A stretch of 56,948 nt of DNA from Mycobacteriaceae bacterium (lineage in GTDB: Bacteria; Actinomycetota; Actinomycetes; Mycobacteriales; Mycobacteriaceae): NCBI GenBank assembly GCA_051646185.1, contig JBOFCS010000055.1, forward strand, positions 1 to 56,948, given 5' to 3'. Both the position numbers and the translations under genes were made by a program. Below, in pieces: positions 23,500 to 37,873 of the stretch. A model generated the notes under the pieces. That model had not been told where the DNA came from. It saw only the letters and a list, made by a program, of their open reading frames with translations, and did not search any database. Numbering within the stretch: the stretch's first letter is position 1; every line of letters starts with the position of its first letter.

Positions 23500-24072
23500 A
23501 TGCAAAGTCCCCGCGAGCGACTCATCGAAGCAACCGTTGCCCTCATGAGCGAAGGTGGGGTCAGCGGCACCGGGATTTCAGAGATATTACAGCTCAGTGG
23601 CACCGCACGGCGATCTGTTTACCAAAATTTCCCGGCCGGCAAGACCCAACTTGTTGCCGAAGCCGCCCGTTCTGCTGGCGACCGAGCCAGTGCTTTATTT
23701 GCTGTTTTTACCGATAACAGCAACCCGTTAGAGAGTCTGACAACTTTTGCTGACGTATGGCGGGCCGGGCTGACACACAGTAATTTTGCGGCCGGCTGCC
23801 CCATCGTTGCGGCAGCATTAGCCGGAAAAGCAGCACCGGAAGCTACAGCTGTGGCCGCTGATATTTTTCGTGACTGGGAACACCTGCTTATCAAGCAGTT
23901 GCTTGGCGTTGGAATAGCCGAGCACACTGCGCTATCGCTCGCCACCACCGTTGTCTGCGCCATTGAAGGAGCCGTGATTATGGCTATTGCCAAAAAATCA
24001 GTTGTCCCTGTAGATCGGGTAGAAAAAAGCCTAAAAGAATTGCTTACTATCCATACAACTGTGGTTGGATAA
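23500..24072 (+). CDS. TetR-family transcriptional regulator
   Basis: N-terminal HTH (RERLIEATVALMSEGGVSGTGISEILQLSGTARRSVYQNF). Divergent from the OYE-fusion gene. Confidence 0.8.
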   Translation: MQSPRERLIEATVALMSEGGVSGTGISEILQLSGTARRSVYQNFPAGKTQLVAEAARSAGDRASALFAVFTDNSNPLESLTTFADVWRAGLTHSNFAAGCPIVAAALAGKAAPEATAVAADIFRDWEHLLIKQLLGVGIAEHTALSLATTVVCAIEGAVIMAIAKKSVVPVDRVEKSLKELLTIHTTVVG

Positions 24073-24115
24073 CCTAAGATACGGTATTAGCACAGGAGTT
24101 CAGGGAGGGCAAGAG

Positions 24116-24232
24116 ATGAACCGATCCTCATCTGCGCTGTTGCTTCGACTCGGTGCAGGAGCAGTAACGCTTATTGTTGGCTCATCTGTTACTCCTGTCC
24201 TCGGAGATTGGAATGACCCTAACCACCCATGA
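24116..24232 (+). CDS. Small ORF (38 aa), signal-peptide/TM-like, translationally coupled to the next ORF
   Basis: Below the ORF-track size cutoff. GGGAGGG SD 6 nt upstream of ATG 24116. Peptide MNRSSSALLLRLGAGAVTLIVGSSVTPVLGDWNDPNHP. Its TGA overlaps ATG 24229 as ATGA. It could instead be the frameshifted N-terminus of the next ORF. Confidence 0.35.
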   Translation: MNRSSSALLLRLGAGAVTLIVGSSVTPVLGDWNDPNHP

Positions 24233-24606
24233 GTACTCCTAACCCAGAAGATGAGTTGCCGCCATTGCGTGGCCCTTTCGCCGACGGTGCTTGGACGATA
24301 GATGTGCCGTCGATGCTTTCCGCACATATCGAGGCACGTGAGAAGTTTCAGAAAATTTTGGAGGGTATTCCCAAAACTGTTCTTGTTACTGATACTTCAG
24401 CAACAGTTCGGACCCCCACCGGAGCCGAAGTGCCACAACTGAAGATGGTGGAAAATTTTGCGCACACTCTTATCCAAAATTTTATCGACAGGATAGGTGT
24501 GTGGAATGAAGATTTAACTGACCGCTTCGCTGAACTCAATATGATTGCCGATCAAATCCGCGTCGCTGTCGAAGAAGAACGGCGAAAAAAACCGGAAGGG
24601 AAGTAG
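24229..24606 (+). CDS. Hypothetical protein (125 aa), no recognisable motif
   Basis: Clean ORF ending 35 nt before the degenerate terminal repeat of CRISPR array 1. Acidic and predicted helical. Confidence 0.45.
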   Translation: MSTPNPEDELPPLRGPFADGAWTIDVPSMLSAHIEAREKFQKILEGIPKTVLVTDTSATVRTPTGAEVPQLKMVENFAHTLIQNFIDRIGVWNEDLTDRFAELNMIADQIRVAVEEERRKKPEGK

Positions 24607-24641
24607 AGCGAACTTTCACGCAGCAATCTACTGAAAGTTGT

Positions 24642-25109
24642 TTTGCTATTCACCTTTTGGCGAGACCTTCTATCGAACTTGCGCTCTGGCGGATTATGCG
24701 AGGTCAGAATATGTTTCTATTCGCCTTTTGGCGAGACCTTCTATTGAACTGGGGGATCATTGTATGACCCGACTGATCCACCAGGGTTTCTATTCGCCTT
24801 TTGGCGAGACCTTCTATTGAACAAGACGGCCCTGTGACGGACGTCGATATTGAGCGGTTTCTATTCGCCTTTTGGCGAGACCTTCTATTGAACAGCAAAC
24901 ACTCTCGGGCTTGCTGAGTTCGGTGCGCGTTTCTATTCGCCTTTTGGCGAGACCTTCTATTGAACGCGCATTAATCTGGTCTGCAAGGTATTTCGTGGTT
25001 TCTATTCGCCTTTTGGCGAGACCTTCTATTGAACTATTCAATTCCCATCTATAGTAAATGTAAGTTTATTTCGTTTCTATTCGCCTTTTGGCGAGACCTT
25101 CTATTGAAC
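24642..25109 (-). CRISPR. CRISPR array 1: 7 repeats (37 nt) / 6 spacers, transcribed on the minus strand
   Basis: Plus-strand repeat GTTTCTATTCGCCTTTTGGCGAGACCTTCTATTGAAC starts at 24713, 24786, 24857, 24929, 24998 and 25073. A degenerate copy (3 mismatches) lies at 24642. Spacer lengths are 34, 36, 34, 35, 32 and 38 nt. Orientation follows from the degenerate repeat at the low-coordinate end, the conserved leader at the high-coordinate end, and a transcribed repeat ending in ATAGAAAC. Confidence 0.95.
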
Positions 25110-25288
25110 CCTACCCCAAAAACATGCCACTTGACCAGCCCCAATACCAACGGTATGTACACCACCCCCAAAAAACCTCACCTGAACACCCGACCAACAC
25201 CCCAAAAAACACCAAAAGCACAGGTCAAAGCCGGTGCACACCAAACCCCATTTCCGCCCATCCGCGAACCACCCTCCATCCACAAGTT
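25110..25288 (-). promoter_or_regulatory. CRISPR leader of array 1
   Basis: About 179 nt abutting the consensus repeat, nearly identical (about 9 mismatches by eye) to 34782..34960 next to array 2. Starts about 36 nt after the cmr1 stop. Confidence 0.7.
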
Positions 25289-25324
25289 GTTCATGGTAAA
25301 TCACACTGCCCACTGGCTTCTCAT

Positions 25325-26530
25325 CTAGCTGGGATGCCCGTTGCGCTTCTTTTTACGACGCCAGAGATTCAATAGCTCAATGAAATCACCTTTGGCTGGT
25401 TGGTCTAAATAAGTTTTGACTCCAGAAACCTTCTTAACTAATTTAGCCCCATCTGGCAACAGTTCAGAATAAAAGACATGGGTAAAAACAATGAATTCAT
25501 TTTTCTCGTTTTGCACTAGTTTAATCCATACCGGGGAAGCACGGCGAAGGCTTTGTTTATTCTTGTCCACGCCCGAAACCATCGCTTTGAATCTGGAACC
25601 TTTTTCGAAATAATTAACCGGCAAACCTAAGCCTGCAACGTCATATCTACGGCCAACTGCCCCAGCCCGAATGCTAGTGATCCATTCTGGACTAAACGAA
25701 TCTTTATTTTGGTGATCATTAGGGGCTTTTCCTAACCGGAAGTTCCTCCAAGAAATTCCTGCTGCATTTAAGACGGTCTCCCAGCTATTCTGATTATTTT
25801 GACTTTCACTTCTGAGCGAGCCACCCCACCATTGATGAGATAGGACTGGAAATTGAGGCAGGGGAAGGTCATCATTAAATTCTTCTCTATTCATTTCACC
25901 CCAGCCTGGGTCTCCCAGTTCTGTAATCCACGGTGGAATAGGATCTTGTTGTAAAGCATTCCAGTCTGGTCTCCAAATTTCGCTACGAGATTGCCAGTTC
26001 CCAGGAAGTGCGCCGACAACTTGAGTGCACTCGATTGCCCCGAACCCCCGGCGGACACGTGCCCCTAAACCCCCATAAATAACCCATGCCCAAATAGCAA
26101 GCATAAGTTGCGAATTGATTTTTTCATCATCGGAAAACCTGAACTCAACGATGAATCGAGATCCTGGATTCACATAAGATCTAGATAACTGCCTTTTACT
26201 TTGATCCCAAAGCCCTTGACCTAAAAGATATTTTATTCCTATTTCAGATGTCCAACGAGGTTCTCTATTGTGAGCAAGACTGGGCTGCGCCCTAACTCTA
26301 ATTGCGATGGAGGAAGGCTTCTTTGTAGAACCAAAAATTGCTTCTTCTGCCTCCCATAGGTCGTTAAGCTCGATAACCCCATGTGCAGCCGCCACCGCAC
26401 GAAACCAATACCGTAAAGCCCCACGAATAGATGGCACCCTAATAGGAGAATCATCTGAATCAGGTCCCGCTTCCGCTCCACCGAATAATGGTGAAACAGT
26501 GGTAAATGTAAATGCTGTCCATGGTTTCAT
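25325..26530 (-). CDS. cmr1: Type III-B RAMP subunit Cmr1
   Basis: 401 aa. N-terminal RAMP signature FTTVSPLFGGAEAG...PSIRGALRYWFRA...IFGS. Second RAMP-like half with a G-rich loop (GGLGARVRRGFG) and RRASPVWIKL. AGGAAG SD. The ATG overlaps the upstream stop (TGATG). Confidence 0.75.
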   Translation of the reverse strand: MKPWTAFTFTTVSPLFGGAEAGPDSDDSPIRVPSIRGALRYWFRAVAAAHGVIELNDLWEAEEAIFGSTKKPSSIAIRVRAQPSLAHNREPRWTSEIGIKYLLGQGLWDQSKRQLSRSYVNPGSRFIVEFRFSDDEKINSQLMLAIWAWVIYGGLGARVRRGFGAIECTQVVGALPGNWQSRSEIWRPDWNALQQDPIPPWITELGDPGWGEMNREEFNDDLPLPQFPVLSHQWWGGSLRSESQNNQNSWETVLNAAGISWRNFRLGKAPNDHQNKDSFSPEWITSIRAGAVGRRYDVAGLGLPVNYFEKGSRFKAMVSGVDKNKQSLRRASPVWIKLVQNEKNEFIVFTHVFYSELLPDGAKLVKKVSGVKTYLDQPAKGDFIELLNLWRRKKKRNGHPS

Positions 26531-27900
26531 CAGCGGCTTCCTCTACTTCGTCGCACTCTACCTAATGGCGCTGTAATCGGCATATCCTGCCACATAATCT
26601 GAACAATTAATCCTGCTGTTAACGACCATCCGGTCATTAACAGCACTACCTTAGCGGGCGCTGCCATCATTTCAGCAGGCATGTCTGGTTCTTGACAAGC
26701 GTCGGAGACCTCTCTTGATTCCCAAACGCTAGTTCCAGGATTATTAAGGCAGTTACCCGCTTCGCCGATTTGTGGGACCACATAAACCAGAACAGGAATG
26801 CTCAGTGCAGCTGCGTACAGGGTAGCTATCCCCCAAACAGCTAAGCCCCTTCCCGCTGCTTTAGGTAAAGATGAACCATGACTGTGACATTCAAAAATTA
26901 TGTAGCACAAAGCAATCACTAATAATACGGCACCCAGTATCCACCCATCCTCAGATTTCCACCATCGAGGAGTTAAAGAAATAAGCAAAGCAAGACCTAC
27001 GGCAATGGTTGCTGGGATACGTAACAGAGAAATTTTGAACCACTTCTCACCAAAATAAAAACCAAGGGACACCGCGAAAATTGCCAACGGGATCAAGGCG
27101 GCAATACAGTGAAATCTATTAGTAAAAAAGAGCGTAATAAGACTTAAAGCCGTGAGAGGTCCGATAAGTAACGCCAAGACAGAATCTCGTTTTGATGAAA
27201 ATTGTATTCGCGTTGCTTCCCACACCGCACCTCTTGGCAACCAGTGTTCTTCAGCAATCTTTACCGAAATTCTTTCATGCTCCATTTTATTCAGACTTGA
27301 ATTTACATCATCACTTTTTGATCCGAGTACAAGCAACTCATCTTTTTTCATTTTTTGAGCCAATTCTGTGGAGATATTCTTTGGGTGAATCCAGCTTATG
27401 GCTTTTAGCTCGGATTCAATCCAATCTTTACCTTCACCGCGAATAGCTAACCAGGGGTCGTCTTCCCACGACGAAAGAATTGTGAGCCAACAATCCCGAG
27501 CATTTCGAGCACATTGTTGTAAAGTTTTTTTACCACTTGACATCTGGCCAAGTGGTCCCGATGCGGCTAAACCAACCTCAGGTAAAGATTCCATCCGCAA
27601 GGGGAGCGTCCAAACCAGGAAGCTAAATCGTGCAGACTTTGAGAATAACTCTTTCGGAATAAAATTGCTGTCAGCATTATCTAACCAACGGGCAAAATGC
27701 ATTAATTCAGTAATAACGTTTTCATCTGATTTTTGGTTCTTCAGTAAGACCATAGGATCTTCAAGAGCTAAAGCTAAATGCTCCTTGTCCATGCCAGTTC
27801 CAACTTCGGGTATACGCACGTCTTCCGAAGACTTACTATCTGAGATTCTCAGAACACTTTTAACATAGTGATGTGTATTTAATTCTTGCTCGCTAATCAT
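26530..27900 (-). CDS. Type III-associated membrane protein: ~238-aa unrecognised cytoplasmic N-domain + 6 TM helices (candidate effector)
   Basis: 456 aa from ATG 27900, which overlaps the CARF stop as ATGA. Hydrophobic segments at about aa 240-260, 263-284, 291-310, 319-337, 352-376 and 415-437. Positive-inside pattern (SSKRD, EKWFK..R, PKAAGR, C-terminal RVRRSRGSR) gives N-in/C-in topology. I recognise no catalytic or family motif. Confidence 0.7.
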   Translation of the reverse strand: MISEQELNTHHYVKSVLRISDSKSSEDVRIPEVGTGMDKEHLALALEDPMVLLKNQKSDENVITELMHFARWLDNADSNFIPKELFSKSARFSFLVWTLPLRMESLPEVGLAASGPLGQMSSGKKTLQQCARNARDCWLTILSSWEDDPWLAIRGEGKDWIESELKAISWIHPKNISTELAQKMKKDELLVLGSKSDDVNSSLNKMEHERISVKIAEEHWLPRGAVWEATRIQFSSKRDSVLALLIGPLTALSLITLFFTNRFHCIAALIPLAIFAVSLGFYFGEKWFKISLLRIPATIAVGLALLISLTPRWWKSEDGWILGAVLLVIALCYIIFECHSHGSSLPKAAGRGLAVWGIATLYAAALSIPVLVYVVPQIGEAGNCLNNPGTSVWESREVSDACQEPDMPAEMMAAPAKVVLLMTGWSLTAGLIVQIMWQDMPITAPLGRVRRSRGSR

Positions 27901-28799
27901 ACGATACTCAACAGTATAATTCCGAGATCTGAAATTCTTTTCGGTGGGCCTTCCTGCCAGCATAGCCCTAACAGCTTATTGTTACGAGTATTATAATCCT
28001 CGGGCATATCTATTGTACCGTTTCTGACAGTAACCTCTGAAAGTTTTTTCATATCTTCAGCTAAGTTGACAAAGCTTCTTATCGGAATAAGAACTCTCTT
28101 AGAGAGATCCAAACTTGTTTTATTTAAGCCTGATTCATGAATAACTTGTGCAGTGATCTTCCAATCACGATGCTCGTCAAGCATTGTTTTAATACCTTCA
28201 GCAATAGTAATAAAGAAGGGCATCATCGCCTTAAACCCTCCACCTAGATGGAAAACTATCTGGCCTTCTCCCTCCTTTCCTATATTGTTTCGGACACTGG
28301 TTTCTATTTCACTACCCATTTTTCCGAGTTGGAAAAATATCTCTTTCGATAATTCTTGACTCAGGTCGAGTCTTGAAACACGACAAATGTATACCTGCCC
28401 TGGTTGTATTGAAGATAGACTTCCTGAGTTATCTTCTTCTCCATCAATATAATTGATGGGTTTGCCCTCAGCGTATTTTGCCGCAACAAACACAGCTGCT
28501 CTAAGCCCGGAAGGGGTATCACTAGCTATGAACACATAGGCATCCTTTTCCCGCTCTTCTGAGTCTCTTGTCTCAATGTAAATTGAAGACCACTCCGCAC
28601 AAACTTCAGGATTATTTTGTAGTTCGGTTATTTCTAGACTAATCTTCGGATCTAGCTCATCAAGATTGAGTAGCCCCTCACGCACAGTATTGCTCAAAAG
28701 CTTTCGCACATCACTCTTTGCATCAATTAAATTCAATAAACTTAAAGAATCATCATTTTGAATAGAAAGTCCCACTGGGACAACATGAATAGTGAACAT
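27897..28799 (-). CDS. Stand-alone CARF-domain protein (no recognisable effector domain)
   Basis: 300 aa from ATG 28799 (AAGGGGA SD; overlaps the cmr6 stop as TGATG). CARF hallmarks: MFTIHVVPVGLS (beta1 + G-x-S), CAEWSS, VFIASDTPSGLRAAVFVA, IVFHLGGGFKAMMPF. No R-x4-6-H HEPN motif and no HD or PD-(D/E)xK. The ORF-track N-terminal extension lies inside cmr6. Confidence 0.7.
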   Translation of the reverse strand: MFTIHVVPVGLSIQNDDSLSLLNLIDAKSDVRKLLSNTVREGLLNLDELDPKISLEITELQNNPEVCAEWSSIYIETRDSEEREKDAYVFIASDTPSGLRAAVFVAAKYAEGKPINYIDGEEDNSGSLSSIQPGQVYICRVSRLDLSQELSKEIFFQLGKMGSEIETSVRNNIGKEGEGQIVFHLGGGFKAMMPFFITIAEGIKTMLDEHRDWKITAQVIHESGLNKTSLDLSKRVLIPIRSFVNLAEDMKKLSEVTVRNGTIDMPEDYNTRNNKLLGLCWQEGPPKRISDLGIILLSIV

Positions 28800-29617
28800 C
28801 AGCTTTCCCCTTTCTCGACTGTGCAGTATCCATATCCGGCAGCAGTTTTTCCGCCAAGCCCAAAGTAGCCACAGCCACCTTCGACCCATGAGTAGAAGAT
28901 TTCCACATCTTCTTTCGTCCCACTCACCCACGTTGAGTAGCTTCCACCGTGTACTGCCAGAAACTGAACAGGAACTGGTTCATAATATTCTGCCGGAGGG
29001 CTTTTCACACCACCGTCAGCGTTTCCTTCATTGTAGTACGGGACAACATGCGGGGTTAGCACATCAACTACAATTTTTGGACGGGATTCAGGGTAGGCAT
29101 CTAAAATAGTTATTGATCCCCTACATCCTGTCATACTTACACTTGCATTATTTCGATCTTCCTGGTTTGCAGCGAAACCAAAGATCCTTGTTCTCAGTTC
29201 TACATCAGCACTACATTCACGAGCATAAGCAGCTGCTACCCCCTTTATTGCTGTTGCCGGGATATAAGGGAAACCGTAGGGCGAAGAAAATGATAAATCT
29301 GTTTCCTGCACTGACTCACCACCATGCCCAACGACCATCCGCCACATCGGCTTAATAATAATTTCTAAGCTAGAATATTTTTCTTGCTGGGCAATGTTTT
29401 TTGCCAATAATTTTCTCCGATCAGTAAGTGAAGAGAAAAAATCATCGGTAAGATTCCGGGTTTGCTCAGTAACCGATTGAAGGTGTTCTTGTTTCTCTCT
29501 TGAATCGTCCGGGCCAAGCCAAAGTCGATGAAAAAGCAACGCCTGATTCAGATTTTTATTTTTTATCTTGTCATCCACATTATCAAGGCGGGAAAGCACA
29601 CCATACCTTTGGCTCAT
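28799..29617 (-). CDS. cmr6: Type III-B RAMP subunit Cmr6
   Basis: Start ATG 29617 overlaps the cmr5 stop (ATGA). Motifs GFPYIPATAIKGVAAAY, RIFGF, VLTPHVVPYY, and C-terminal G-rich FGLGGKTAAGYGY. Confidence 0.85.
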   Translation of the reverse strand: MSQRYGVLSRLDNVDDKIKNKNLNQALLFHRLWLGPDDSREKQEHLQSVTEQTRNLTDDFFSSLTDRRKLLAKNIAQQEKYSSLEIIIKPMWRMVVGHGGESVQETDLSFSSPYGFPYIPATAIKGVAAAYARECSADVELRTRIFGFAANQEDRNNASVSMTGCRGSITILDAYPESRPKIVVDVLTPHVVPYYNEGNADGGVKSPPAEYYEPVPVQFLAVHGGSYSTWVSGTKEDVEIFYSWVEGGCGYFGLGGKTAAGYGYCTVEKGES

Positions 29618-29997
29618 CCCTGCTGCCCCTTTTCTTCTACTGTGCATCTGGCATCAGCAATTTTTGATAGCCACTGGCAAAACATCTTAGCTCTCGCTTC
29701 GGCAACTCTTTGCTGTTGCCGTTCTGCCCCAATGAGCGATCCCAGCAGTCCATTTCCATCAGCTCCTGCCTTATACTGAATTCCCGCCTGCTCGCAGGCA
29801 TCTTTCAATACTATGGTTGCCACTCGCACATATTCTTCTTTGTCTTTTTTTGATAACAAAAAGGCACAGCTTGCTGCTAATCCGCTCGTCTGTATGCTCG
29901 CCGGAAGTGCCCTCAATCTAGTTCTTAATACTGAATTAACCTCTTGCCCAAGTGCATTTGACGCAGCAGCTGCTAAATTAGAATCCAAGCGCGTCAT
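29614..29997 (-). CDS. cmr5: Type III-B small subunit Cmr5
   Basis: 127 aa, helical. LPASIQTSGLAASCAFLL and FCQWLSKIADA match the Cmr5 pattern. The ATG overlaps the cmr4 stop (ATGA). Confidence 0.7.
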   Translation of the reverse strand: MTRLDSNLAAAASNALGQEVNSVLRTRLRALPASIQTSGLAASCAFLLSKKDKEEYVRVATIVLKDACEQAGIQYKAGADGNGLLGSLIGAERQQQRVAEARAKMFCQWLSKIADARCTVEEKGQQG

Positions 29998-31022
29998 GCT
30001 AACCACCTGTACTCCCGCTTAGCGCTGCCAGTACCACCTTGTCTCCCTGCACCAGGCTTTGGCACCGGTTTAGGTTTGGCCTGAGCTGTAGCGCTTCCCG
30101 TTTCTTGTTCAGGGACTGCTGGCCTAGGCTCCGCACCTTGGTTTGTACTAAAAATTTTCTCAATATCTTCTGCTTTATGTATCCGGCACCAAAATATGCC
30201 TTTACCAGTTGATTCATCCCCACCAAGTTGAAAAACCTTGCCATTTAATATTTTTTCTAACAAATCGAGATGTTTTTTTTCTCCCGAAAGCACTGATACT
30301 AGAATGGTTTCTGCTGGAAGGTATTCTGAATAAAAAGGTCCGTGCGCTACCTGCTTAGTTTCTTCTTCAAGCTGAATCCGAGCCACAACATCTGTTCCGT
30401 GATTGGCAAGTTCTGAAAAATCACCTGCTTCAACAATAACCACGTCTTCTTCAATCTTTTTGCGTGAGAAGGTAAATTCCTCATTACATGGAAAAACAAA
30501 TTTTGATAAGGAATTACCCAGATTTCTAACAGCATTTTCTGTGCTTACACTGACCAAGATTGGACCAAAAACTTGTTTTCCTTTCCACCCTTCAGTGCCA
30601 ATTCCTCCGTTAATACTTTTTGTATAAACACTTTTCAATGTTGAAGTATCAGCGCCGATAATCCGCGCCTTGCGCGCTAGCCTGGCAAGCAACTGAACTG
30701 AGGTGACCCAGGCAAAAAGCCGATCAAGTGATGCAGCTGGCATCGCTAGAAGCTGGGCATCCCCAAAACTTACAGCTCCTCTGGTTAACCTACTGTCAGT
30801 TTCCCCTGGTGGCTTTGAGCCAAAAATTGCTTCATCTTGTTCCGAAGTGAAACCCGAAGAACGAGCATGATCGCGTAGTGCCCCTTTAAGTGACTGACCC
30901 CAAATTAACGGTAGCCCAGTTCCAGCTTCCCGCTGAATAGGGAGATCAATGCTGGACATGGCTCCTGAACCTCCCGCATGGATAGGGGTTTCAGCAAAAA
31001 GTACTAGCAATCTATGTTCCAT
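29994..31022 (-). CDS. cmr4: Type III-B backbone RAMP / target-RNA slicer Cmr4
   Basis: LLVLFAETPIHAGGSG...SSIDLPIQRE (catalytic Asp context), WGQSLKGALRDHAR, IFGS, QLGGDESTGKG. Start at ATG 31022 (TAATG overlap with the cmr3 stop), or alternatively ATG 31028. Confidence 0.9.
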   Translation of the reverse strand: MEHRLLVLFAETPIHAGGSGAMSSIDLPIQREAGTGLPLIWGQSLKGALRDHARSSGFTSEQDEAIFGSKPPGETDSRLTRGAVSFGDAQLLAMPAASLDRLFAWVTSVQLLARLARKARIIGADTSTLKSVYTKSINGGIGTEGWKGKQVFGPILVSVSTENAVRNLGNSLSKFVFPCNEEFTFSRKKIEEDVVIVEAGDFSELANHGTDVVARIQLEEETKQVAHGPFYSEYLPAETILVSVLSGEKKHLDLLEKILNGKVFQLGGDESTGKGIFWCRIHKAEDIEKIFSTNQGAEPRPAVPEQETGSATAQAKPKPVPKPGAGRQGGTGSAKREYRWLA

Positions 31023-32053
31023 TACCATCTCCCTGTCAAGACAACACCAAAACCTGAATTTACAATTCCTTCAGAAGGATTCAATAATTTTTCGTGATGA
31101 TTATTGGCCCACGCCTGTGCTAAATCTTTATCTCCAAAATCGACGTAAAGCACCGTTCCTGCCGGAAGCGCCCACTGAAGTTGCCGACTCTCCGAGAAAT
31201 TTTTGCGCACGGACGCGGTGGCTATCGGCTGGGGACCAGTACAGCTCATCACGCATAGCGTCGCATCTTCTGGTGACCAAAATTTTTTATCGACCAGACC
31301 CGGAGTTGCTAGATAAATAGCCACTCTCCCGCTATCGAACTGCGGAACCTCGATATGCGGGACTTTGTCGCGCATATTTGCTAGACGAACATGAGCTATG
31401 CGCCCTCTACCGCCTAAAGGAACAACTGAGTTTTTAATTTCCACTGTATCTGAGGAAACACAGCCCAACATGAAAGCTAACTTATCTGCACCACGTAAAT
31501 GTGTTGTTGCGTACAGCATTGATTCCATTGCCGTACCTTCAAATTCGCCAGAATAATGCCGCGCTAGGCCAAGGCGAGGTTCCGCTGACCATCCTGGGCT
31601 TTCTTTATGCCTTTGTTTTATCCACTTTGTGTCTATTTTCTCCCCGAAGCGGATTTCCCCTTCATTTGTTAACCAGTTTTCCATCGCACCGGTGCGAATC
31701 CAACCGCCTAACGTTTTTCCTTCACCAACTGTTTCATGGCTGAACCGATATTCTGAATCTAAGTCATTTCGTTGTGATGTCGAGCGCTCTTCGAGTGTTA
31801 GACGACGAAATTCGGTATCGTCTTTTACGATGTCGACTGGTGTTGGATAGTACGCATTTCCCTCTACAACGACGGTCGGGCCAATGATCATCTCCCCTAC
31901 CTCTTTACCTAATGCGGTGTGTAATACACCTCCGAAGGTACTGGGAGGTGGGGTGATTGGATTTGATATATTCGCTGACCCAGCATCAAAAGGTCTACCA
32001 TCACGAACCATTGCTGTGTCCAGTAGCTCAACTACTACCCATGTTGTTGTCAT
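31022..32053 (-). CDS. cmr3: Type III-B subunit Cmr3
   Basis: N-terminus TTWVVVELLDTAMVRDGRPFDAGS is typical of Cmr3. G-rich loop PLGGRGR. The ATG at 32053 overlaps the cas10 stop (ATGA); alternative ATG at 32059. Confidence 0.85.
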   Translation of the reverse strand: MTTTWVVVELLDTAMVRDGRPFDAGSANISNPITPPPSTFGGVLHTALGKEVGEMIIGPTVVVEGNAYYPTPVDIVKDDTEFRRLTLEERSTSQRNDLDSEYRFSHETVGEGKTLGGWIRTGAMENWLTNEGEIRFGEKIDTKWIKQRHKESPGWSAEPRLGLARHYSGEFEGTAMESMLYATTHLRGADKLAFMLGCVSSDTVEIKNSVVPLGGRGRIAHVRLANMRDKVPHIEVPQFDSGRVAIYLATPGLVDKKFWSPEDATLCVMSCTGPQPIATASVRKNFSESRQLQWALPAGTVLYVDFGDKDLAQAWANNHHEKLLNPSEGIVNSGFGVVLTGRW

Positions 32054-33864
32054 TGGCATTCCTGAGAAAGAAATCGGGCAATAAGCACGGCAGGGAGCGG
32101 CTGTAGAAACTTTCCATTTGACCGCTCTTGCTCTGCAAGCTTGACCAAAGATTTTGCCGATAAGTCACTTCCACCGTGACGGATGGTTAACCGGTGAATT
32201 TCAGCTTTCAGAGTGTCCCAGAGATCTGGGTTATCTTCCGCCGCTAAGCTTTGCATTTCTTTGTTATTGGCTTCTATATCTGCGGCAAGACGCGGCGACA
32301 AAGCATTTGCTCCACTGGGGCTTACGGCCCGCAATAGATCAGCGGCATTACCACCGTCTGAATTTATATTCCATGGTTGTACCGTTCTTGCTCGTTCACC
32401 TCCCCGTCGAATAGCAATCACAGCTAACGCATCTCGGTTTTGGGTGGGAGATATCTGAGCATTTTTTGCTTCATTCAGTGCTTCCCTGACTGATTCAAGA
32501 GCTAATCGTAGCGGGTAAGACATGTGTACGAACACAATAGCGGTGGATGCTGTTACACCTTTTCCCTTGTTAGCTTTCTGCCATAACATGTTTTTGTCAA
32601 CATGTTCGGCAAGAGACTTTCGTAACGTTTCTGCCAAACTTAAAGCCGTTGAGGCTGGGCTGAAAGCCAAAAAATCATCACCCCCGGAATAAATCACCGA
32701 GGAACAAAATTCCGATTTTCTTGCGATTTTCTTCTGCTCTTGAGCCAGTTCGTATAATTGGAAAGCGGCTTCACTCTGCTCATTCAGAGTCCAAGAGTTA
32801 AGGGCCTGACCTAGTCGATCAATATCTTGAGCGATGATAGCGTAATATGGCGAAAGATCAAGATTAATATGGATTTTGGCTAGTTTAAGGATTTCTTTTG
32901 ACGCTTCTCTACCCTTAGCGACAAGTTTATCGTTAATACCTTCATATTCTTTTGCTAATGTTTCTACCCGCCAAAGTTCGGGATATAACCAATCTGCGCA
33001 ATTTGCGAATGAAGTACGACTCCCAGCTGAGGGAGTAGCTCCTGAATCATTCAGGACAGCAATAACTTCTTCTAATTGATTAACCGGACTAGTCAGCGCT
33101 TTGCCGAGATCCTTGTTTTCCGTTTGCTCTAACTTTGCCAGAAAAGCCGCCGAAGCAACGGCACGAGTGGATGAAAATTTTCCTTTAGTGTTTTTCCTTT
33201 TCACCCAGCCAGCTGCGGATAAGTTTTCATCACTCTCATACCTTTGCAGTAACCTTATTTTGGCCGCCGGAATTGCTGGTAGTCCAGCAGATTGAGAGCA
33301 GAGCACTACTTGTTTTTCTATGAATGGGTCAAAAACCTTACTACGCTTTCGAGCGGTCAATGCTCGCTGAGCTGCCTGCCATAAATCTGCGTAGTTACCT
33401 GCGCTTCCTTCCACAGTAATCCAGGAAATATCTGGAAAGCCAGGGGTTTTTATTGGCGTATCTTCTACAAAAACTTCTGCCAACTTATTTTGCCAAAGCT
33501 GTGTCATTTTTTCTACGCATTTTTCGGCAATCGATGCTCCCTGCCCTACATTACAAAGGTAGATGATTTTATTTGTTACAGAAGCACTATCAACCATTTT
33601 GGGACTTGGGAAAACCCGATAACCCTCGTTTTCTGTCACTTCTTCAGCGGCTACCCAGGCTAGTTCTTGCAGAAGCAAGCTCGCATTTGCGACATCGCGT
33701 GTGGTGCGTGATTCGACAATAAATTTTTGAACACCCCCCAGGGCAATAATGCCCATTTCTATCTTCTCAGTAGAAGAGTAACCAGACGCCAAAGCCCCAA
33801 CTCGATCCCGCTGCACAGCCTGCACACCCTCCGTTGACCTCAAAAGACTACGAAGCGCAGACAT
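32050..33864 (-). CDS. cas10: Cas10/Cmr2, cyclase-type palm domains, no HD nuclease domain
   Basis: 604 aa. It opens almost directly with the palm-1 strand GIIALGGVQKFIVESRTTRDVANASLLL. Palm-2 has AIIAQDIDRLG and an intact GGDD (VIYSGGDDFLAF; GGDD codons at 32674..32685). No H-D dyad or extra N-terminal domain. The alternative start at ATG 33756 would make it even shorter. Confidence 0.9.
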   Translation of the reverse strand: MSALRSLLRSTEGVQAVQRDRVGALASGYSSTEKIEMGIIALGGVQKFIVESRTTRDVANASLLLQELAWVAAEEVTENEGYRVFPSPKMVDSASVTNKIIYLCNVGQGASIAEKCVEKMTQLWQNKLAEVFVEDTPIKTPGFPDISWITVEGSAGNYADLWQAAQRALTARKRSKVFDPFIEKQVVLCSQSAGLPAIPAAKIRLLQRYESDENLSAAGWVKRKNTKGKFSSTRAVASAAFLAKLEQTENKDLGKALTSPVNQLEEVIAVLNDSGATPSAGSRTSFANCADWLYPELWRVETLAKEYEGINDKLVAKGREASKEILKLAKIHINLDLSPYYAIIAQDIDRLGQALNSWTLNEQSEAAFQLYELAQEQKKIARKSEFCSSVIYSGGDDFLAFSPASTALSLAETLRKSLAEHVDKNMLWQKANKGKGVTASTAIVFVHMSYPLRLALESVREALNEAKNAQISPTQNRDALAVIAIRRGGERARTVQPWNINSDGGNAADLLRAVSPSGANALSPRLAADIEANNKEMQSLAAEDNPDLWDTLKAEIHRLTIRHGGSDLSAKSLVKLAEQERSNGKFLQPLPAVLIARFLSQECQ

Positions 33865-33954: not shown

Positions 33955-34781
33955 AGATCTCTTTCTTTGCAGGCGAGACCTTCTATTGAACCCGCGGCAA
34001 CCTCATAGTGAACTGCCACCCCAGGTTTCTATTCGCCTTTTGGCGAGACCTTCTATTGAACAACCCACTTAGAGCAGTCGCAACTCAACGATGCGCGTTT
34101 CTATTCGCCTTTTGGCGAGACCTTCTATCGAACTGGGAAGCGAATCTCAAGCAGGCCGTCTTTGATGGTTTCTATTCGCCTTTTGGCGAGACCTTCTATC
34201 GAACTTCGATTCTTAGGGGTACCGCGTCTCAGTCTCCAGTTTCTATTCGCCTTTTGGCGAGACCTTCTATCGAACGCAGCATCCGAAATGGATGGATACG
34301 CCGAATCGACGTTTCTATTCGCCTTTTGGCGAGACCTTCTATCGAACATTAAAGAAGAGGGTTTGGCCGCAGCGCAATTCCCTGTAGTTTCTATTCGCCT
34401 TTTGGCGAGACCTTCTATCGAACTCGGGCGACGGCGCAAGGCTCCCACGGGCGGGCCTGTTTCTATTCGCCTTTTGGCGAGACCTTCTATCGAACGCTGA
34501 TGATGCTCGCGCACAGCGGGATTACCTCGGGTTTCTATTCGCCTTTTGGCGAGACCTTCTATCGAACGTTTCGATTGAAGGGGACGCACCACTGTCGTTT
34601 GTTTCTATTCGCCTTTTGGCGAGACCTTCTATCGAACTCGGTAGATGTCGATGTAGGGCTAACTGATTCTGCTGTTTCTATTCGCCTTTTGGCGAGACCT
34701 TCTATCGAACCCAAATGGTGGCATCCCCGCGCCCCCAGTTAGGTGTTTCTATTCGCCTTTTGGCGAGACCTTCTATCGAAC
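33955..34781 (-). CRISPR. CRISPR array 2: 12 repeats (37 nt) / 11 spacers, transcribed on the minus strand
   Basis: Plus-strand repeat GTTTCTATTCGCCTTTTGGCGAGACCTTCTATCGAAC starts at 34097, 34168, 34239, 34311, 34387, 34459, 34531, 34601, 34674 and 34745. A T-variant (..CTATTGAAC) lies at 34025, and a half-degenerate terminal repeat at 33955. Spacer lengths are 33, 35, 34, 34, 35, 39, 35, 35, 33, 36 and 34 nt. Confidence 0.95.
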
Positions 34782-34989: not shown

Positions 34990-35274
34990 TTAGAAAACAG
35001 CCCAAAACAACACTGGCTCCCCCGGCGATGCCTGACCAGAAAGCCCCTTCAACTCCCAACACGACGCACACTGCCGAGCCACAAAAAATGAATCCGTTTC
35101 CGCATCAATAATCGACTCCACTTCTCTGGTCAATAATGCCAAATCTTTTACCCCAATCGTGCACAGAAAAACGCTGTACTGCAAGCGATTTCCCCATCGC
35201 TGAAGCTTAGCCGCCACTTTAGAACGACGGCCGTTATCAACAATGTCATAAAAGGCTAAAACCGTTAGCGCCAT
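34990..35274 (-). CDS. cas2: Cas2
   Basis: Start ATG 35274 (MALTVLAFYDIVDN..., catalytic Asp in beta1), then RLQYSVFLC. Overlaps the RT-cas1 3' end by 10 nt. Confidence 0.85.
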   Translation of the reverse strand: MALTVLAFYDIVDNGRRSKVAAKLQRWGNRLQYSVFLCTIGVKDLALLTREVESIIDAETDSFFVARQCASCWELKGLSGQASPGEPVLFWAVF

Positions 35275-37145
35275 GCTAACCCCGTCCACCGACACTCCGG
35301 GTCTGCCACCGTCGCAGCCAACCTCTGCGCTTGCCGATACACATGTCGGCGAAGACTCCCAGAAAAATCTGGCAGCGCCCCACCTGTCATTTGCAACATC
35401 CGGTGCTCATACCCCTGAGTCAGCACCCGCTTCCCCTCTTTGGTCAGCCACACCCCCGATTCACCATCACCGTGGTACCCATGCTCCGCCGTCAGTGCAC
35501 CCTTACGGGCCAAACTCAACACCACCTGATCTACCACCATCGGACGGAACTCCTCCATCAGGTCCAAAGCTAAACTCGGCCGTCTATCGGAATCTGAATG
35601 CAAAATACCAATACTCGGATCTAAACCTGCTGAGAAAAGCGCAGAAACACACTCCCCCAACAAAATTGCATAACCATAACTCAAAGCAGCATTCACCACA
35701 TCTAACGGCGGCCTACGCGACCTCCCAGAAAATTCACACCACAGCGGCAGCAGAAGCCCAAACGCAGTAAAGTACGTTTTCGCCGCCGCACCTTCACAAC
35801 CCATCAGCTCCGGCACCGAGGTTGCTTGGCGAATGTGCCCCTGTAAACCTCGCATCTGTACCAAACCTGCCCGAATATCTTCTGCATGTTCTCGGCGTCC
35901 AAACCTCTGCACCAAAGAAATTTGATGCCCAATTTTTGCTTCAACCATTGCCGAAGCCAACAAAATTTGGTGCTGCACATTATCTTCAAGTGCCAGCTGA
36001 GTCCGCAACCTCGCCAACCGTTGCGGAGAAGACCCGGAAATAAACTGCCCCTGATAGGAACCGCGACGCGAAAGAAAGACCATTTCCACATCGGAATCAA
36101 AAGCCCACGCGCGCAACCCTGAAGACACACTTACCGACCCAAAAGTAACAACCCGAGAAATATGAGAAGCCGGAACTTCCAACAATAGTTCCTCATCTTT
36201 GGACTCCACCGTTACCTTACCGCGAGTGGTAGCAATACGGCTTCCTTGCCTCCCCGCATACAACACCCGCTGCACCGAATCATCGACTCGCCCTAAACTT
36301 ATCAGTGGTGGATACCGGGTTCCAAAATCCTCACCCAAGAAGCAAAATCCCTCAGAAAAAGACATAACCTCAGTTTTATCTTCGTCAAGGTTCATACCCA
36401 ATTCCTCCAATGCTTGCGTCGCTATTCGCAGCGCTTCCCAAGCTTCACTTTGTGAGCTACAGACAACAGTAAAATCATCAGAAAACCGCACTACAGGAAA
36501 ACCATTGTCTAACAATTTATTATCTAAATTTGTTAGAACAAGATTGCGTAATAAAGGAAAGAGGGCTGCTTCCTTCGATGGCACAGATACCTCAGAAAGC
36601 CCATCCCTAGTGTGAACTCGCCGTGACAACAAAGCTACGATCACAGCATCAAGAGAGGAATCAGGGAGTATTTGCACCAACATTCGTCGAACAAGAGCGT
36701 AAGCAATAGTGCCAAGACAATCCCACACCTTCGCTTGAAGCACCCACGCTAAACCTTCCTCCCTCAGAGTCACCACTGCCTGCACAGCATCAGCTACAGA
36801 CAAACCTGGCCGATCAGCATACGATGCCACCCCTAGGCATCGGTCCACATACCCGGTGATGCCTTTTAGCACAGCAAGTTCCACTATTGTATCTTGGATT
36901 GAAGGAACCGCTAATACCCGAAAACTACTGTCATGCTTAGGTATCTGCACCTCATGGAAATCATGGGGACGATACGTACCATCACGCAGTTGGCCTGCTA
37001 ATGCGTGCAGCCGCTCACTAGCAGACTCAGCAAACTGCGCTACTGCAACCGAGAATTTTCCTTCAACGCTTTGCCGGGCAAGCAGCTCACCCCAGGCATC
37101 TTCCAACGCTGCACGGCTTGTCACAAGCTCATGCAGCGTTGACAT
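35265..37145 (-). CDS. cas1: Reverse transcriptase-Cas1 fusion (RT-Cas1)
   Basis: 626 aa. The N-terminal ~300 aa is a group-II-intron-like RT (FRVLAVPSIQDTIVELAVL; YxDD box as RFSDDFTVV, FSDD codons 36474..36485; LDEDKTEV). The C-terminal part is Cas1 (VVTFGSVSVSSGLRAWAFDSDVEMVFLSRRGSYQG; GCEGAAAKTYF; GILHSDSDRRPSLALDLMEEFRP). Confidence 0.9.
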   Translation of the reverse strand: MSTLHELVTSRAALEDAWGELLARQSVEGKFSVAVAQFAESASERLHALAGQLRDGTYRPHDFHEVQIPKHDSSFRVLAVPSIQDTIVELAVLKGITGYVDRCLGVASYADRPGLSVADAVQAVVTLREEGLAWVLQAKVWDCLGTIAYALVRRMLVQILPDSSLDAVIVALLSRRVHTRDGLSEVSVPSKEAALFPLLRNLVLTNLDNKLLDNGFPVVRFSDDFTVVCSSQSEAWEALRIATQALEELGMNLDEDKTEVMSFSEGFCFLGEDFGTRYPPLISLGRVDDSVQRVLYAGRQGSRIATTRGKVTVESKDEELLLEVPASHISRVVTFGSVSVSSGLRAWAFDSDVEMVFLSRRGSYQGQFISGSSPQRLARLRTQLALEDNVQHQILLASAMVEAKIGHQISLVQRFGRREHAEDIRAGLVQMRGLQGHIRQATSVPELMGCEGAAAKTYFTAFGLLLPLWCEFSGRSRRPPLDVVNAALSYGYAILLGECVSALFSAGLDPSIGILHSDSDRRPSLALDLMEEFRPMVVDQVVLSLARKGALTAEHGYHGDGESGVWLTKEGKRVLTQGYEHRMLQMTGGALPDFSGSLRRHVYRQAQRLAATVADPECRWTGLAWR

Positions 37146-37147
37146 GA

Positions 37148-37873
37148 CTAACCTGCCGCCGCTAAGCGTTGTTGGTCTGTGTTGATCCTGGTGACTCCTA
37201 ATCCTTTGGTGGTGCTACTTCCGATACCAGCAAATTCGGCAAAAGCAAGTAAAGCACCAAACTGTGCTGCCACAGCAGGATCATCACAGGCATAACTCAC
37301 CCGACCCACAAACCCCGATACCATCATCTTCGCCAAAGGCAACACCTGACTACACCCATCAATATCTCGTACCCATAAGTGTTGTGCCGCAGCTTCCCGA
37401 TCAATTTTTATTTGCGGAATCGGCTTAGGGGAAAGCTCATTCCACTTTTCCGAAAGGGAACGGGCCACAGTCCGAGGGTCCGGCCACGGTGACGACCGCT
37501 GCTTATAACGAAAGGTTGTGGGGGTAAGAAAATCTACAGACCACACCTTGGCAACCGGGGCTGACAGAAACTGACCCCATTGAAGTTGTTGCATTACTTG
37601 AGGTTCACCAAGAATTGTTGCTGACTGCGAACCAAAGCGCACAGCACTGTTGGCGGCCACTCGCGAAAGCAACAACTGCTCAGCTTGATTGTTCAGCGTG
37701 CACACTTCAAGCACAGCAACCCCATCAACAACCCGCAACGGACTCACCGACCACGGCTTATGCGAACCCCAATGATCACTGTCTAACCATGCACAAGCAA
37801 CAGCATGGACATAATCGAGCTTTACCAAATCGGGGTCAACCCCACCAACTGGCACTAGCCATCTAGTCAGCAT
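37148..37873 (-). CDS. cas6: Cas6-family crRNA endoribonuclease (divergent)
   Basis: 241 aa. C-terminal glycine-rich loop FAGIGSSTTKGLGVTR is typical of Cas6. Position is 2 nt upstream of RT-cas1. The rest of the sequence is weakly diagnostic. Confidence 0.65.
   Translation of the reverse strand: MLTRWLVPVGGVDPDLVKLDYVHAVACAWLDSDHWGSHKPWSVSPLRVVDGVAVLEVCTLNNQAEQLLLSRVAANSAVRFGSQSATILGEPQVMQQLQWGQFLSAPVAKVWSVDFLTPTTFRYKQRSSPWPDPRTVARSLSEKWNELSPKPIPQIKIDREAAAQHLWVRDIDGCSQVLPLAKMMVSGFVGRVSYACDDPAVAAQFGALLAFAEFAGIGSSTTKGLGVTRINTDQQRLAAAG

What the first reader, a model, noticed from the sequence alone, without database searches (positions are those of the whole stretch)
26530..27900. 456-aa membrane protein: unassigned cytoplasmic domain, CHSH loop and Cys-pair extracytoplasmic loop
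Seen:
- There is no signal peptide.
- Residues 1-238 are hydrophilic (W-rich: ARWLD, DCWLTILSSWEDDPWLAIRGEGKDWIESELKAISWIHP).
- Six TM helices follow.
- The predicted cytoplasmic loop between TM4 and TM5 carries E-C-H-S-H.
- The long acidic loop between TM5 and TM6 carries two Cys (GNCLNN...SDACQEPD), compatible with an external disulfide.
- The weak SD and ATGA overlap imply translation coupled to the CARF gene.

Inference: this looks like a ligand- or partner-gated membrane-perturbing protein or channel rather than an enzyme. I recognise no family.
Basis: partly seen in the sequence, partly recalled or inferred. Interest (0 to 1): 0.65.

Follow-up and report, generated by a model that had tools for sequence, protein, structure and literature searches.

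The report
Cam3-type CRISPR membrane protein, CARF-paired
This gene encodes a six-helix membrane protein of the little-studied "Cam3" family; it always sits next to a small signal-sensing (CARF) gene inside type III CRISPR operons of actinobacteria, and it is probably the part of the immune system that acts on the cell membrane when a virus is detected.

Summary
Window 26530-27900 (-) encodes a 456-aa protein with a cytoplasmic all-helical N-domain and six TM helices. It is translationally coupled to the CARF gene upstream and to cmr1 downstream.

The protein matches PADLOC Mem_01 (E 1.3e-42) and fits Cam3, a family described by bioinformatics only in 2024 and called "enigmatic".

An exhaustive search found 260 clusters. 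All 51 genome loci are Actinomycetota, and a roughly 310-aa CARF gene lies directly upstream in 52 of 52 loci where that region is present.

That partner is a CARF7 domain plus a short wHTH-like tail. It has no RelE, so it is not a canonical Cami1. Every linked Cas10 is short and keeps GGDD. The pair also occurs beside III-D/H-like modules.

Cam3 is therefore the only candidate output of cOA signalling in these loci. I think it is most likely a membrane-perturbing effector, either gated in trans by the CARF dimer or binding the signal itself.

Of CHSH, only E337 and H341 are conserved. The Cys pair is specific to the close subfamily. The AF2 model (pLDDT 88.5) has no relative in the PDB. This is a divergent new member of a known but untested family.

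The parts
26530..27900 (-). cam3-like gene (456 aa plus stop): the finding itself
   Evidence: ORF and translation. PADLOC Mem_01 E 1.3e-42. 260 family clusters. AF2 pLDDT 88.5, pTM 0.89.
27193..27900 (-). Residues 1-236: cytoplasmic all-alpha N-domain with conserved R91, R93, F94, R102, R135, W138 and R223
   Evidence: No hydrophobic segment here. AF2 helices with pLDDT mostly above 90. Conservation. No Pfam or PDB relative.
26587..27192 (-). Residues 237-438: six-TM bundle. TM3 and TM6 are the most conserved. R294, G302, Y333 and R351 are invariant; E337, H341, Q434 and W437 are conserved in at least 91%.
26650..26775 (-). Residues 376-417: acidic extracytoplasmic TM5-TM6 loop with C384 and C402. 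It is variable across the family, and the Cys pair is found only in the close subfamily.
   Evidence: 31-36 of 109 sequences have two Cys; loop length ranges from 18 to 59 aa; median net charge is -2.
26533..26586 (-). Residues 439-456: basic cytoplasmic C-terminal tail (D-x-P-I-T-A-P-L-G-R-x-R-R), among the best-conserved stretches of the family
   Evidence: mean top-residue frequency 0.67. This stretch supplied the pattern used for the locus scan.
27897..28799 (-). Partner gene: 300-aa CARF7 (Cas_APE2256-type) domain plus a wHTH-like C-terminal domain of about 65 aa. It has no RelE.
   Evidence: PADLOC CARF7--CARF_RelE profile, positions 64-234 only, E 6.9e-32. Pfam Cas_APE2256 only, in 27 of 29 homologues. 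PDB: Cami1 CARF core 5e-5, Sso1393 0.064. C-terminal profile hits only an ArsR wHTH wing, E 0.18.
25325..26530 (-). cmr1, whose start overlaps the cam3 stop
   Evidence: TIGR01894 4e-20; TGATG overlap.
28799..33864 (-). cas10/cmr2 (32050-33864; GGDD at residue 394; no HD), cmr3, cmr4, cmr5 and cmr6
24642..25109 (+). CRISPR array 1: seven 37-nt repeats
34025..34781 (+). CRISPR array 2: eleven 37-nt repeats
34990..37873 (-). Adaptation and processing genes: cas2 (34990-35295), RT-cas1 fusion (35265-37145), cas6 (37148-37873)

Best explanation
**What it is.** The gene encodes a divergent member (about 35% identity to its nearest relatives) of the CRISPR-associated membrane protein family catalogued as PADLOC Mem_01. 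The family is very probably identical to Cam3 of Hoikkala, Graham and White (2024).

**Where it sits.** It forms an obligatory two-gene module with a RelE-less CARF7-wHTH protein. The module lies between cmr6 and cmr1 of a complete type III-B (Cmr) locus. The Cas10 of that locus is short, has no HD nuclease motif and keeps the GGDD cyclase motif.

**Proposed mechanism (inferred, not shown).**
1. Binding of target RNA makes Cas10 synthesise cyclic oligoadenylate. This is probably cA4, as for other CARF7 proteins.
2. The dimeric CARF7-wHTH partner binds the signal and changes conformation, as Crn1-type Sis0811 does.
3. The partner then engages the Arg-rich cytoplasmic N-domain and/or the conserved basic C-tail of Cam3.
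4. This switches the six-TM bundle into a state that dissipates membrane potential or integrity, arresting the infected cell.
5. Slow ring-nuclease activity of the CARF domain (S12 and the GGxK lysine are retained) would reset the system.

**Shown here:** the architecture, the topology, the family, the obligatory gene pairing, the absence of RelE and HD, and the conservation of GGDD. **Inferred:** the identity of the ligand, the CARF-Cam3 contact, and membrane perturbation as the output.
For: **Family**
- PADLOC Mem_01 match at E 1.3e-42 over 377 of 440 profile positions. Distant members hit the same profile at down to 1e-170.
- The published description of Cam3 matches: type III-B loci, directly downstream of a "Cami1" gene, a helical N-domain and six TM helices, no structural relatives, and AF2 pLDDT of about 90 (against my).

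**Pairing**
- The order cas10-cmr3-cmr4-cmr5-cmr6-CARF-Mem-cmr1 recurs in essentially all loci.
- A CARF profile hit lies directly upstream of Mem in 52 of 52 loci that include that region.
- 4-nt overlaps between the two genes are common.
- In L040, L044 and L048 the pair lies beside a III-D/H-like module instead. Both genes in those loci share the same nearest relative, L021. The module therefore moves as a unit and does not depend on Cmr proteins.

**Cam3 as the output**
- All 45 Cas10 palm hits keep GGDD, and these Cas10s are about 600-680 aa. The window's Cas10 has no HD in its first 120 aa.
- The CARF partner has no effector domain. Pfam finds only Cas_APE2256.
- The alignment to Cami1 ends at residue 186 of 406, and only about 65 aa follow in this protein.
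- That 65-aa tail resembles a wHTH wing.
- No other accessory gene lies in the operon.

**Functional surface**
- Seven conserved arginines and E337, H341, Q434, D439 and the C-tail all lie on the cytoplasmic side.

**Precedent**
- Cam1, Csx23, CorA, Cap1 and Chp1 are type III effectors that depolarise membranes.
- Sis0811 transmits cA4 binding to its wHTH domains (PMC8643638).
Against: - There is no experimental data for any family member. [quoted passage not shown]
- No CARF-Cam3 fusion was found among the longest family members, so a physical interaction is not supported by a fused "Rosetta-stone" protein.
- I could not run an oligomer or complex prediction, and I could not inspect the model's coordinates. 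There is therefore no evidence for a pore.
- The conserved R/E/H/Y/D cluster would equally fit an enzyme or a ligand-binding site.
- The partner has the architecture and catalytic residues of a Crn1-type ring nuclease, so it may be only an off-switch.
- Identity with the authors' Cam3 HMM could not be tested.
Confidence: 0.5

Rival explanations
1. Cam3 is both sensor and effector. Its Arg-rich cytoplasmic domain binds the Cas10 product directly and opens or activates the TM domain. The upstream CARF7-wHTH protein is simply a Crn1-type ring nuclease that degrades cA4 to limit toxicity.
For: - The partner has the Crn1 (Sis0811/Sso1393) architecture of CARF plus a wHTH of about 60 aa. It retains the Ser (VGLS) and Lys (GGxK) that are catalytic in Sso1393.
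- Membrane effectors such as Cam1 are accompanied by ring nucleases in 81% of loci (PMC12409355).
- Cam3 has seven conserved cytoplasmic arginines.
- No CARF-Cam3 fusions were found.
Against: - The N-domain matches no known nucleotide-binding fold.
- 100% adjacency with overlapping reading frames is tighter than the usual loose association between ring nucleases and effectors.
- In three homologues the lysine is replaced by Arg, and in several the Ser by Asn or Thr.
Confidence: 0.22
2. Cam3 is a non-toxic accessory protein. It would act as a membrane anchor or scaffold that tethers the Cmr complex (for example through Cmr1) or the CARF protein to the membrane, as was proposed generically for CRISPR-linked membrane proteins in 2018.
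For: - The gene is embedded among structural cmr genes and translationally coupled to cmr1.
- Shmakov et al. proposed anchoring for such proteins (bioRxiv 10.1101/270033).
- Hoikkala et al. suggested an accessory role.
Against: - The pair also occurs with III-D/H-like modules that have no cmr1, and in L040 it is convergent with them.
- An anchor would leave these HD-less, cyclase-competent loci with a sensor but no effector.
- The strongest conservation is inside TM3 and TM6 and on the cytoplasmic face, which is more than a passive anchor would need.
Confidence: 0.13
3. Cam3 is a membrane-embedded enzyme or transporter, for example a lipid- or envelope-modifying hydrolase or transferase, or an exporter or degrader of the signal. 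It would use the conserved R294/Y333/E337/H341/R351/Q434/D439 cluster as an active site.
For: Invariant or near-invariant polar and charged residues cluster at one membrane face. The consensus E-x-R-x-H-G plus invariant Tyr and Arg looks like a catalytic site.
Against: - No similarity to any known membrane enzyme or transporter in Pfam, NCBIfam, PDB sequences or Foldseek.
- The family is never found outside type III CRISPR loci in the 51 genome hits.
Confidence: 0.1
4. The CARF7-wHTH protein is a cA4-responsive transcription factor (Csa3-like) and Cam3 is an unrelated passenger gene.
For: The partner has a CARF plus wHTH architecture, and its tail gives a weak hit to the ArsR wing.
Against: - The C-terminal domain is not basic.
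- The two genes are inseparable in 52 of 52 loci and move together.
- Cam3 is not found elsewhere.
Confidence: 0.04

Closest known systems
Cam3 (CRISPR-associated membrane protein 3; Hoikkala, Graham & White, NAR 2024, PMC11229360), also PADLOC-DB PDLC01155 [quoted passage not shown]
   Same: - Found in type III-B loci, immediately downstream of a CARF7 gene.
- Compact helical N-terminal soluble domain plus a six-TM bundle.
- No structural relatives.
- Strong match to the Mem_01 profile.
   Different: - The window protein belongs to a diverged subfamily: about 35% identity to its closest relatives, 20-28% to the main group, and Mem_01 E 1e-42 against 1e-170 for the main group.
- It has a longer acidic TM5-6 loop carrying a Cys pair.
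- The published family comprised 12 loci; here it reaches 260 clusters, all Actinomycetota, plus III-D/H-like contexts.
- The paper calls the partner Cami1, but here the partner has no RelE.
Cam1, Csx23, Cap1 and Chp1 (cOA-gated CARF/TM membrane effectors of type III CRISPR)
   Same: The proposed output is the same: membrane depolarisation triggered by a Cas10-made cyclic oligoadenylate, in loci that rely on signalling.
   Different: - Those proteins carry the sensor and the TM domain in one polypeptide, with 1-4 TM helices per chain.
- Here the CARF sensor and the six-TM protein are separate gene products.
- There is no sequence or fold similarity.
CorA-type type III-B effector with its NrN or SAM-AMP lyase partner
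   Same: It is a membrane protein with a large cytoplasmic N-domain, embedded in III-B loci, and paired with a small soluble signal-handling protein.
   Different: - CorA has two TM helices, forms a pentamer and responds to SAM-AMP.
- There is no CorA Pfam hit here.
- The partner here is a CARF, which points to cA4.
Cami1 (CARF-RelE mRNA interferase; PDB 8PHB/8PHJ), compared with the partner gene
   Same: The partner's CARF7/Cas_APE2256 domain is the closest solved relative (E 5e-5).
   Different: - Cami1 is 369-406 aa and has a C-terminal RelE.
- The partner here is 300-330 aa, and only about 65 aa of wHTH-like sequence follow the CARF domain.
- No RelE or ParE signal was found.
Crn1-type ring nucleases Sis0811 and Sso1393 (PDB 7PQ2, 3QYF), compared with the partner gene
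   Same: - Same CARF7 plus wHTH architecture and similar length.
- The catalytic Ser after beta-1 and the Lys in GGxK are retained.
- cA4 binding in Sis0811 moves the wHTH domains.
   Different: - Sequence similarity is only marginal (E 0.064 and 0.95).
- Crn1 is mostly crenarchaeal and stand-alone, not welded to a membrane-protein gene.

Membership tests
Cam3 (Hoikkala et al. 2024) | Encoded in a type III-B CRISPR-cas locus | tested here: met
   cas10/cmr2, cmr3, cmr4, cmr5, cmr6 and cmr1 were identified by Pfam and NCBIfam. The same holds in the homologous loci.
Cam3 (Hoikkala et al. 2024) | Always immediately downstream of the gene annotated as Cami1 (a CARF7 protein) | tested here: met
   A CARF7 gene lies directly upstream with an ATGA overlap, and this holds in 52 of 52 loci. 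Caveat: this CARF7 protein lacks RelE.
Cam3 (Hoikkala et al. 2024) | Compact helix-rich N-terminal soluble domain followed by a six-helix TM bundle, with no convincing structural homologue | tested here: met
   Hydropathy. AF2 model with pLDDT 88.5 and pTM 0.89. Foldseek against PDB and BFVD gave no hit with E below 1.
Cam3 (Hoikkala et al. 2024) | Significant match to the authors' Cam3 HMM or reference sequences | not testable with these tools
   The profile is on Figshare/GitHub and no accession is given in the held text or supplements.
PADLOC Mem_01 (PDLC01155) | Significant full-length match to the profile | tested here: met
   E 1.3e-42, 144.5 bits, residues 65-469 of the 477-aa form matched to profile positions 57-433 of 440.
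Cam1 / CARF-TM fusion effectors | CARF (or SAVED) sensor domain in the same polypeptide as the TM helices | tested here: not met
   No CARF or SAVED hit in this protein in Pfam, NCBIfam or PADLOC, and none in 60 family members or the 10 longest members.
CorA-type CRISPR effector | CorA fold: cytoplasmic domain plus two C-terminal TM helices with a GxN motif | tested here: not met
   Six TM helices; no CorA family hit.
Cami1 (for the partner gene 27897-28799) | CARF7 domain | tested here: met
   PADLOC CARF7--CARF_RelE profile positions 64-234, E 6.9e-32. Cami1 8PHB CARF core, E 5e-5.
Cami1 (for the partner gene 27897-28799) | C-terminal RelE-family ribonuclease domain | tested here: not met
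   No RelE or ParE family at E up to 1 in 29 homologues. Only about 65 aa follow the CARF domain, against about 220 in Cami1. The C-terminal profile hits only an ArsR wHTH wing.
Crn1-type ring nuclease (for the partner gene) | CARF7 (with or without wHTH), with the catalytic Ser after beta-1 and the Lys in GGxK | tested here: inconclusive
   The architecture and both residues are present (VGLS; GGGFK) and mostly conserved (residues per PMC8643638). Sequence similarity to Sso1393 and 7PQ2 is marginal (E 0.064 and 0.95). Enzyme activity cannot be tested here.

The most novel reading that the evidence does not exclude
The CARF7-wHTH protein and Cam3 form a split sensor-effector pair. A soluble CARF dimer binds cA4 and, through its wHTH movement, gates in trans a separate six-TM protein whose fold has no solved relative. 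This would be the first type III CRISPR membrane effector controlled by a stand-alone CARF. It would show that a Crn1-like scaffold can act as a signal transducer and not only as an off-switch.
Probability: 0.33. Interest if true: 0.75.

Novelty: new member of a known kind. Interest (0 to 1): 0.5.

Why it matters
Cam3 is one of the few recurrent type III CRISPR ancillary families with no assigned function, and nobody has tested it.

This analysis sharpens the question in three ways:
- In these loci Cas10 can signal but cannot cut DNA.
- The only CARF protein present has no effector domain.
- Cam3 is inseparable from that CARF protein.

Cam3 is therefore the prime candidate for the immune output in a large group of actinobacterial systems, including Streptomyces, Micromonospora, Nocardiopsis, Thermobifida and Frankia.

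If this is confirmed, it would add a new membrane-effector fold and possibly a new logic, with sensor and effector as separate proteins. It would also correct the annotation of the partner as Cami1.

If Cam3 turns out to be only an anchor, these systems would lack a known effector, which would itself need explaining.

Tried and rejected
**Searches on Cam3 itself**
- Pfam and NCBIfam on the protein found nothing. Pfam on 60 family members gave only scattered chance-level hits, including a single SLATT_fungal hit at 0.0073 that I do not trust.
- PDB sequence searches with profiles A1 and A4 found nothing below E 0.1.
- The first AF2 run, with 13 sequences, was poor (pLDDT 60.7) and was replaced by a run with 109 sequences.
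- Foldseek against PDB and BFVD gave best E above 1 and TM-scores below 0.25. A housekeeping transporter or enzyme fold is therefore rejected.
- A search for CARF-Cam3 fusions among the longest members found none.
- The viral contig scan found no relatives.

**Searches on the CARF partner**
- The word-indexed homologue search found only the protein itself. A profile search found only uncharacterised family members of 311-330 aa, plus one 227-aa hit and the window's own 300-aa protein.
- A RelE domain in the partner is rejected.

**Other**
- Rfam on the window gave no hits.
- I could not identify the source organism. Sequencing runs are coded, and the two window proteins found in the collection (AdoHcyase and Cam3) are each the only member of their 90% cluster.
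- P0177 (locus L057) looked like a degraded locus and was uninformative.
- The Cami1 paper (Science 2023) is not held.
- Chance adjacency of a housekeeping membrane gene is rejected by the 52 of 52 synteny.
Full report
**The observation**

Window 26530-27900 on the minus strand is an open reading frame of 456 codons. Its ATG overlaps the TGA of the upstream gene (…cgtATGAtt…), and its TGA overlaps the ATG of the downstream gene (…cTGATGa…). A longer 477-aa reading from the ATG at 27963 is possible. However, the homologues start at the shorter position and many share the same 4-nt overlap.

The first 238 residues contain no hydrophobic segment. Six Kyte-Doolittle peaks follow at 241-259, 265-283, 290-308, 320-338, 357-375 and 418-436. 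They coincide with six long helices in a confident AlphaFold2 model (pLDDT 88.5, pTM 0.89).

Across 109 family members all six segments stay hydrophobic. Lys and Arg are concentrated before TM1, in loop 4-5 and in the C-tail. Loops 1-2 and 3-4 are poor in charge and loop 5-6 is net acidic.

**The surroundings**

The gene lies inside a complete type III-B locus, all on the minus strand:
- cas6 (37148-37873), an RT-cas1 fusion (35265-37145) and cas2 (34990-35295);
- an 11-repeat CRISPR array (34025-34781);
- cas10/cmr2, cmr3, cmr4, cmr5 and cmr6 (28799-33864);
- a CARF gene (27897-28799), the membrane gene, and cmr1 (25325-26530);
- a second, 7-repeat array (24642-25109).

Cas10 is only 604 aa. 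It has GGDD at residue 394 and no HD dipeptide in its first 120 residues.

**It belongs to a known family**

Pfam and NCBIfam have nothing for this protein. PADLOC-DB, however, has a profile named [quoted passage not shown], which matches at E 1.3e-42 over 377 of 440 positions. I could not verify where that profile originated.

The literature search turned up Hoikkala, Graham and White (NAR 2024, PMC11229360). They defined "Cam3" from 12 type III-B loci. According to that paper Cam3:
- has a compact helical N-terminal soluble domain and a six-TM bundle;

Their AF2 statistics (pLDDT 90.2, pTM 0.873) are like mine. No other held paper mentions Cam3 in a CRISPR context. I could not score the window protein against their HMM, so identity with Cam3 rests on matching every described feature plus the Mem_01 hit.

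**Size and distribution of the family**

The word-indexed search found 12 relatives at about 35% identity. The exhaustive profile search found 260 clusters at E no greater than 1e-3, and 63 at E no greater than 1e-30. They split into about 22 full-length members of the window's subfamily and a larger group of about 500-aa proteins at 20-28% identity. The Mem_01 profile hits that larger group at down to 1e-170.

A scan of one genome per GTDB species returned 51 loci, all from Actinomycetota. They include Pseudonocardiales, Streptosporangiales, Micromonospora, Streptomyces, Nocardiopsis, Thermobifida, Frankia symbionts and Mycobacteriales. None was found in IMG/VR viral contigs. The window itself has about 49% GC. 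Its AdoHcyase and Cam3 are each the only member of their 90% cluster. I could not name the organism.

**Synteny**

tblastn with the window's Cas proteins shows cas10-cmr3-cmr4-cmr5-cmr6-CARF-Mem-cmr1 in essentially every locus. With a profile of the CARF partner, a hit lies directly upstream of the membrane gene in 52 of 52 loci that include that region. The four loci without a hit are contigs that begin inside the membrane gene, or a locus where the membrane gene itself was not detected by tblastn.

Three Nocardiopsaceae genomes (L040, L044, L048) carry the pair next to a different effector module: Cas5_IIIh, large fused Cas7_IIId/Csm3 proteins and Csx25. In those genomes both genes have the same nearest relative, L021. 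The two genes are therefore a module that moves together and is not tied to Cmr subunits.

**The partner is not a canonical Cami1**

The partner is 300 aa here and 305-340 aa throughout the family.
- Its N-terminal 235 residues or so are a CARF7/Cas_APE2256 domain. The evidence is PADLOC CARF7--CARF_RelE profile positions 64-234 only (E 6.9e-32), Pfam Cas_APE2256 in 27 of 29 homologues, and the CARF core of Cami1 8PHB (E 5e-5).
- The alignment to Cami1 ends at residue 186 of 406. Only about 65 residues follow in this family.
- No RelE or ParE family is detected at E up to 1.
- A profile of the tail alone hits only the wing of an ArsR-type winged helix (E 0.18; "eGyayere..grrwrLTpfGeglr").

CARF plus a wHTH of about 60 aa is the architecture of the Crn1-type ring nucleases Sis0811 and Sso1393. 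In Sis0811, cA4 binding drives a corkscrew movement that displaces the wHTH domains. In Sso1393, S11 and K168 are the proposed catalytic residues (PMC8643638). The equivalent Ser (VGLS) and Lys (GGGFK) are present here and mostly conserved.

The supplement of the 2024 paper lists a 316-aa Streptomyces cyanogenus Cas_APE2256 protein from a III-B locus among rows with 369-380-aa Allochromatium and Desulfonema proteins. This is consistent with their Cam3-linked "Cami1" being this RelE-less form, but I could not confirm it.

**What is conserved in Cam3**

TM3, TM6 and the C-terminal tail are the best-conserved segments. TM1, TM2 and the TM5-6 loop are the worst.
- Invariant across 109 sequences: R294, G302, Y333, R351 and L446.
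- Conserved in at least 90%: R91, R93, F94, R102, R135, W138, R223, W313, E337, H341, P376, G430, Q434, W437, D439, P441 and T443.
- All conserved charged residues lie on the cytoplasmic side.
- The tail consensus Q-I-L-W-D-D-R-P-I-T-A-P-L is the family's signature.
- The Cys pair occurs in 31-36 of 109 sequences, all from the close subfamily. Elsewhere the loop is about 25 aa and has no cysteines.

**Fold**

Foldseek of the confident model against 350,542 PDB chains and against BFVD gave no hit with E below 1, and TM-scores stayed below 0.25. Profile searches of PDB sequences were also empty.

**Mechanism**

All 45 linked Cas10s keep GGDD and are about 600-680 aa. These systems can therefore signal, and they appear to lack the HD nuclease. 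The only two accessory genes are a CARF sensor with no effector domain and Cam3. By elimination, and by analogy with Cam1, Csx23, CorA, Cap1 and Chp1, Cam3 is most likely the membrane-acting output.

I favour gating in trans by the cA4-bound CARF-wHTH dimer (about 0.5, counting the family assignment as near certain). The main alternative is that Cam3 binds the signal itself and the partner is a ring-nuclease off-switch (about 0.2). An anchoring role fits poorly with the III-D/H contexts and would leave these loci without an effector. An enzymatic role cannot be excluded, given the conserved polar cluster.

None of this has been tested experimentally. I could not run complex or oligomer predictions, and I could not inspect the model's coordinates.

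**Verdict**

It is a divergent new member of a catalogued but uncharacterised CRISPR ancillary family.

Noticed in passing
L040:5716-8453, L044:6580-9068, L048:6439-9044: In three Nocardiopsaceae genomes the CARF-Cam3 pair is not inside a cmr operon. It lies next to a type III-D/III-H-like module (Cas5_IIIh, fused Cas7_IIId/Csm3 proteins of 700-950 aa, Csx25). Both genes share the same nearest relative, L021, which has a III-B context.
   Followed up: partly
window 34990-37873: The adaptation module has an RT-Cas1 fusion (626 aa) with cas6 and cas2, so the system may acquire spacers from RNA. RT-cas1 recurs downstream of cmr1 in many related loci.
   Followed up: partly
window 24642-25109 and 34025-34781: Two CRISPR arrays with the same 37-nt repeat flank the cmr operon. 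Array 1 and the first repeat of array 2 carry ...TATTGAAC, and the rest of array 2 carries ...TATCGAAC. The first repeat of array 1 is degenerate (3 mismatches). Spacers were not analysed.
   Followed up: no
window 24001-34000: GC content drops to 0.43-0.47 across the CRISPR-cas locus, against 0.48-0.53 in the flanks. This suggests the locus was acquired horizontally. All relatives are in high-GC Actinomycetota, whereas this window is about 49% GC overall.
   Followed up: no
window 38010-39485: An S-adenosyl-L-homocysteine hydrolase gene lies directly next to cas6. It is probably housekeeping, but SAM-derived signals (SAM-AMP) exist in other III-B systems. The protein has no relative at 90% identity or above in the 15-billion-protein collection.
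   Followed up: no
window 41698-42024: A 129-bp tandem repeat (2.5 copies, 79% matches) lies inside a virginiamycin B lyase-like beta-propeller gene (41200-42189). It probably reflects repeated propeller blades.
   Followed up: no
window 24229-24606: A 125-aa ORF with no Pfam hit lies between the TetR gene and CRISPR array 1.
   Followed up: no
L042:1489-1974 and L020:7617-9110: One Pseudonocardiaceae MAG (M3-B1_metabat2.bin.28) carries two cmr-CARF-Cam3 loci. L020 has an intact copy of the main-group type. L042 has a copy of the window's subfamily in which the Cam3 ORF is reduced to about 161 aa, apparently through an internal deletion.
   Followed up: no
L001:1428-3819 and L002:14009-17570: Near several related loci there are genes for a large HTH_31 protein, a PCMT-type methyltransferase and, in L001, a 2H-phosphoesterase (2_5_RNA_ligase2). 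The phosphoesterase could act on 2',3'-cyclic phosphate products of cOA cleavage.
   Followed up: no
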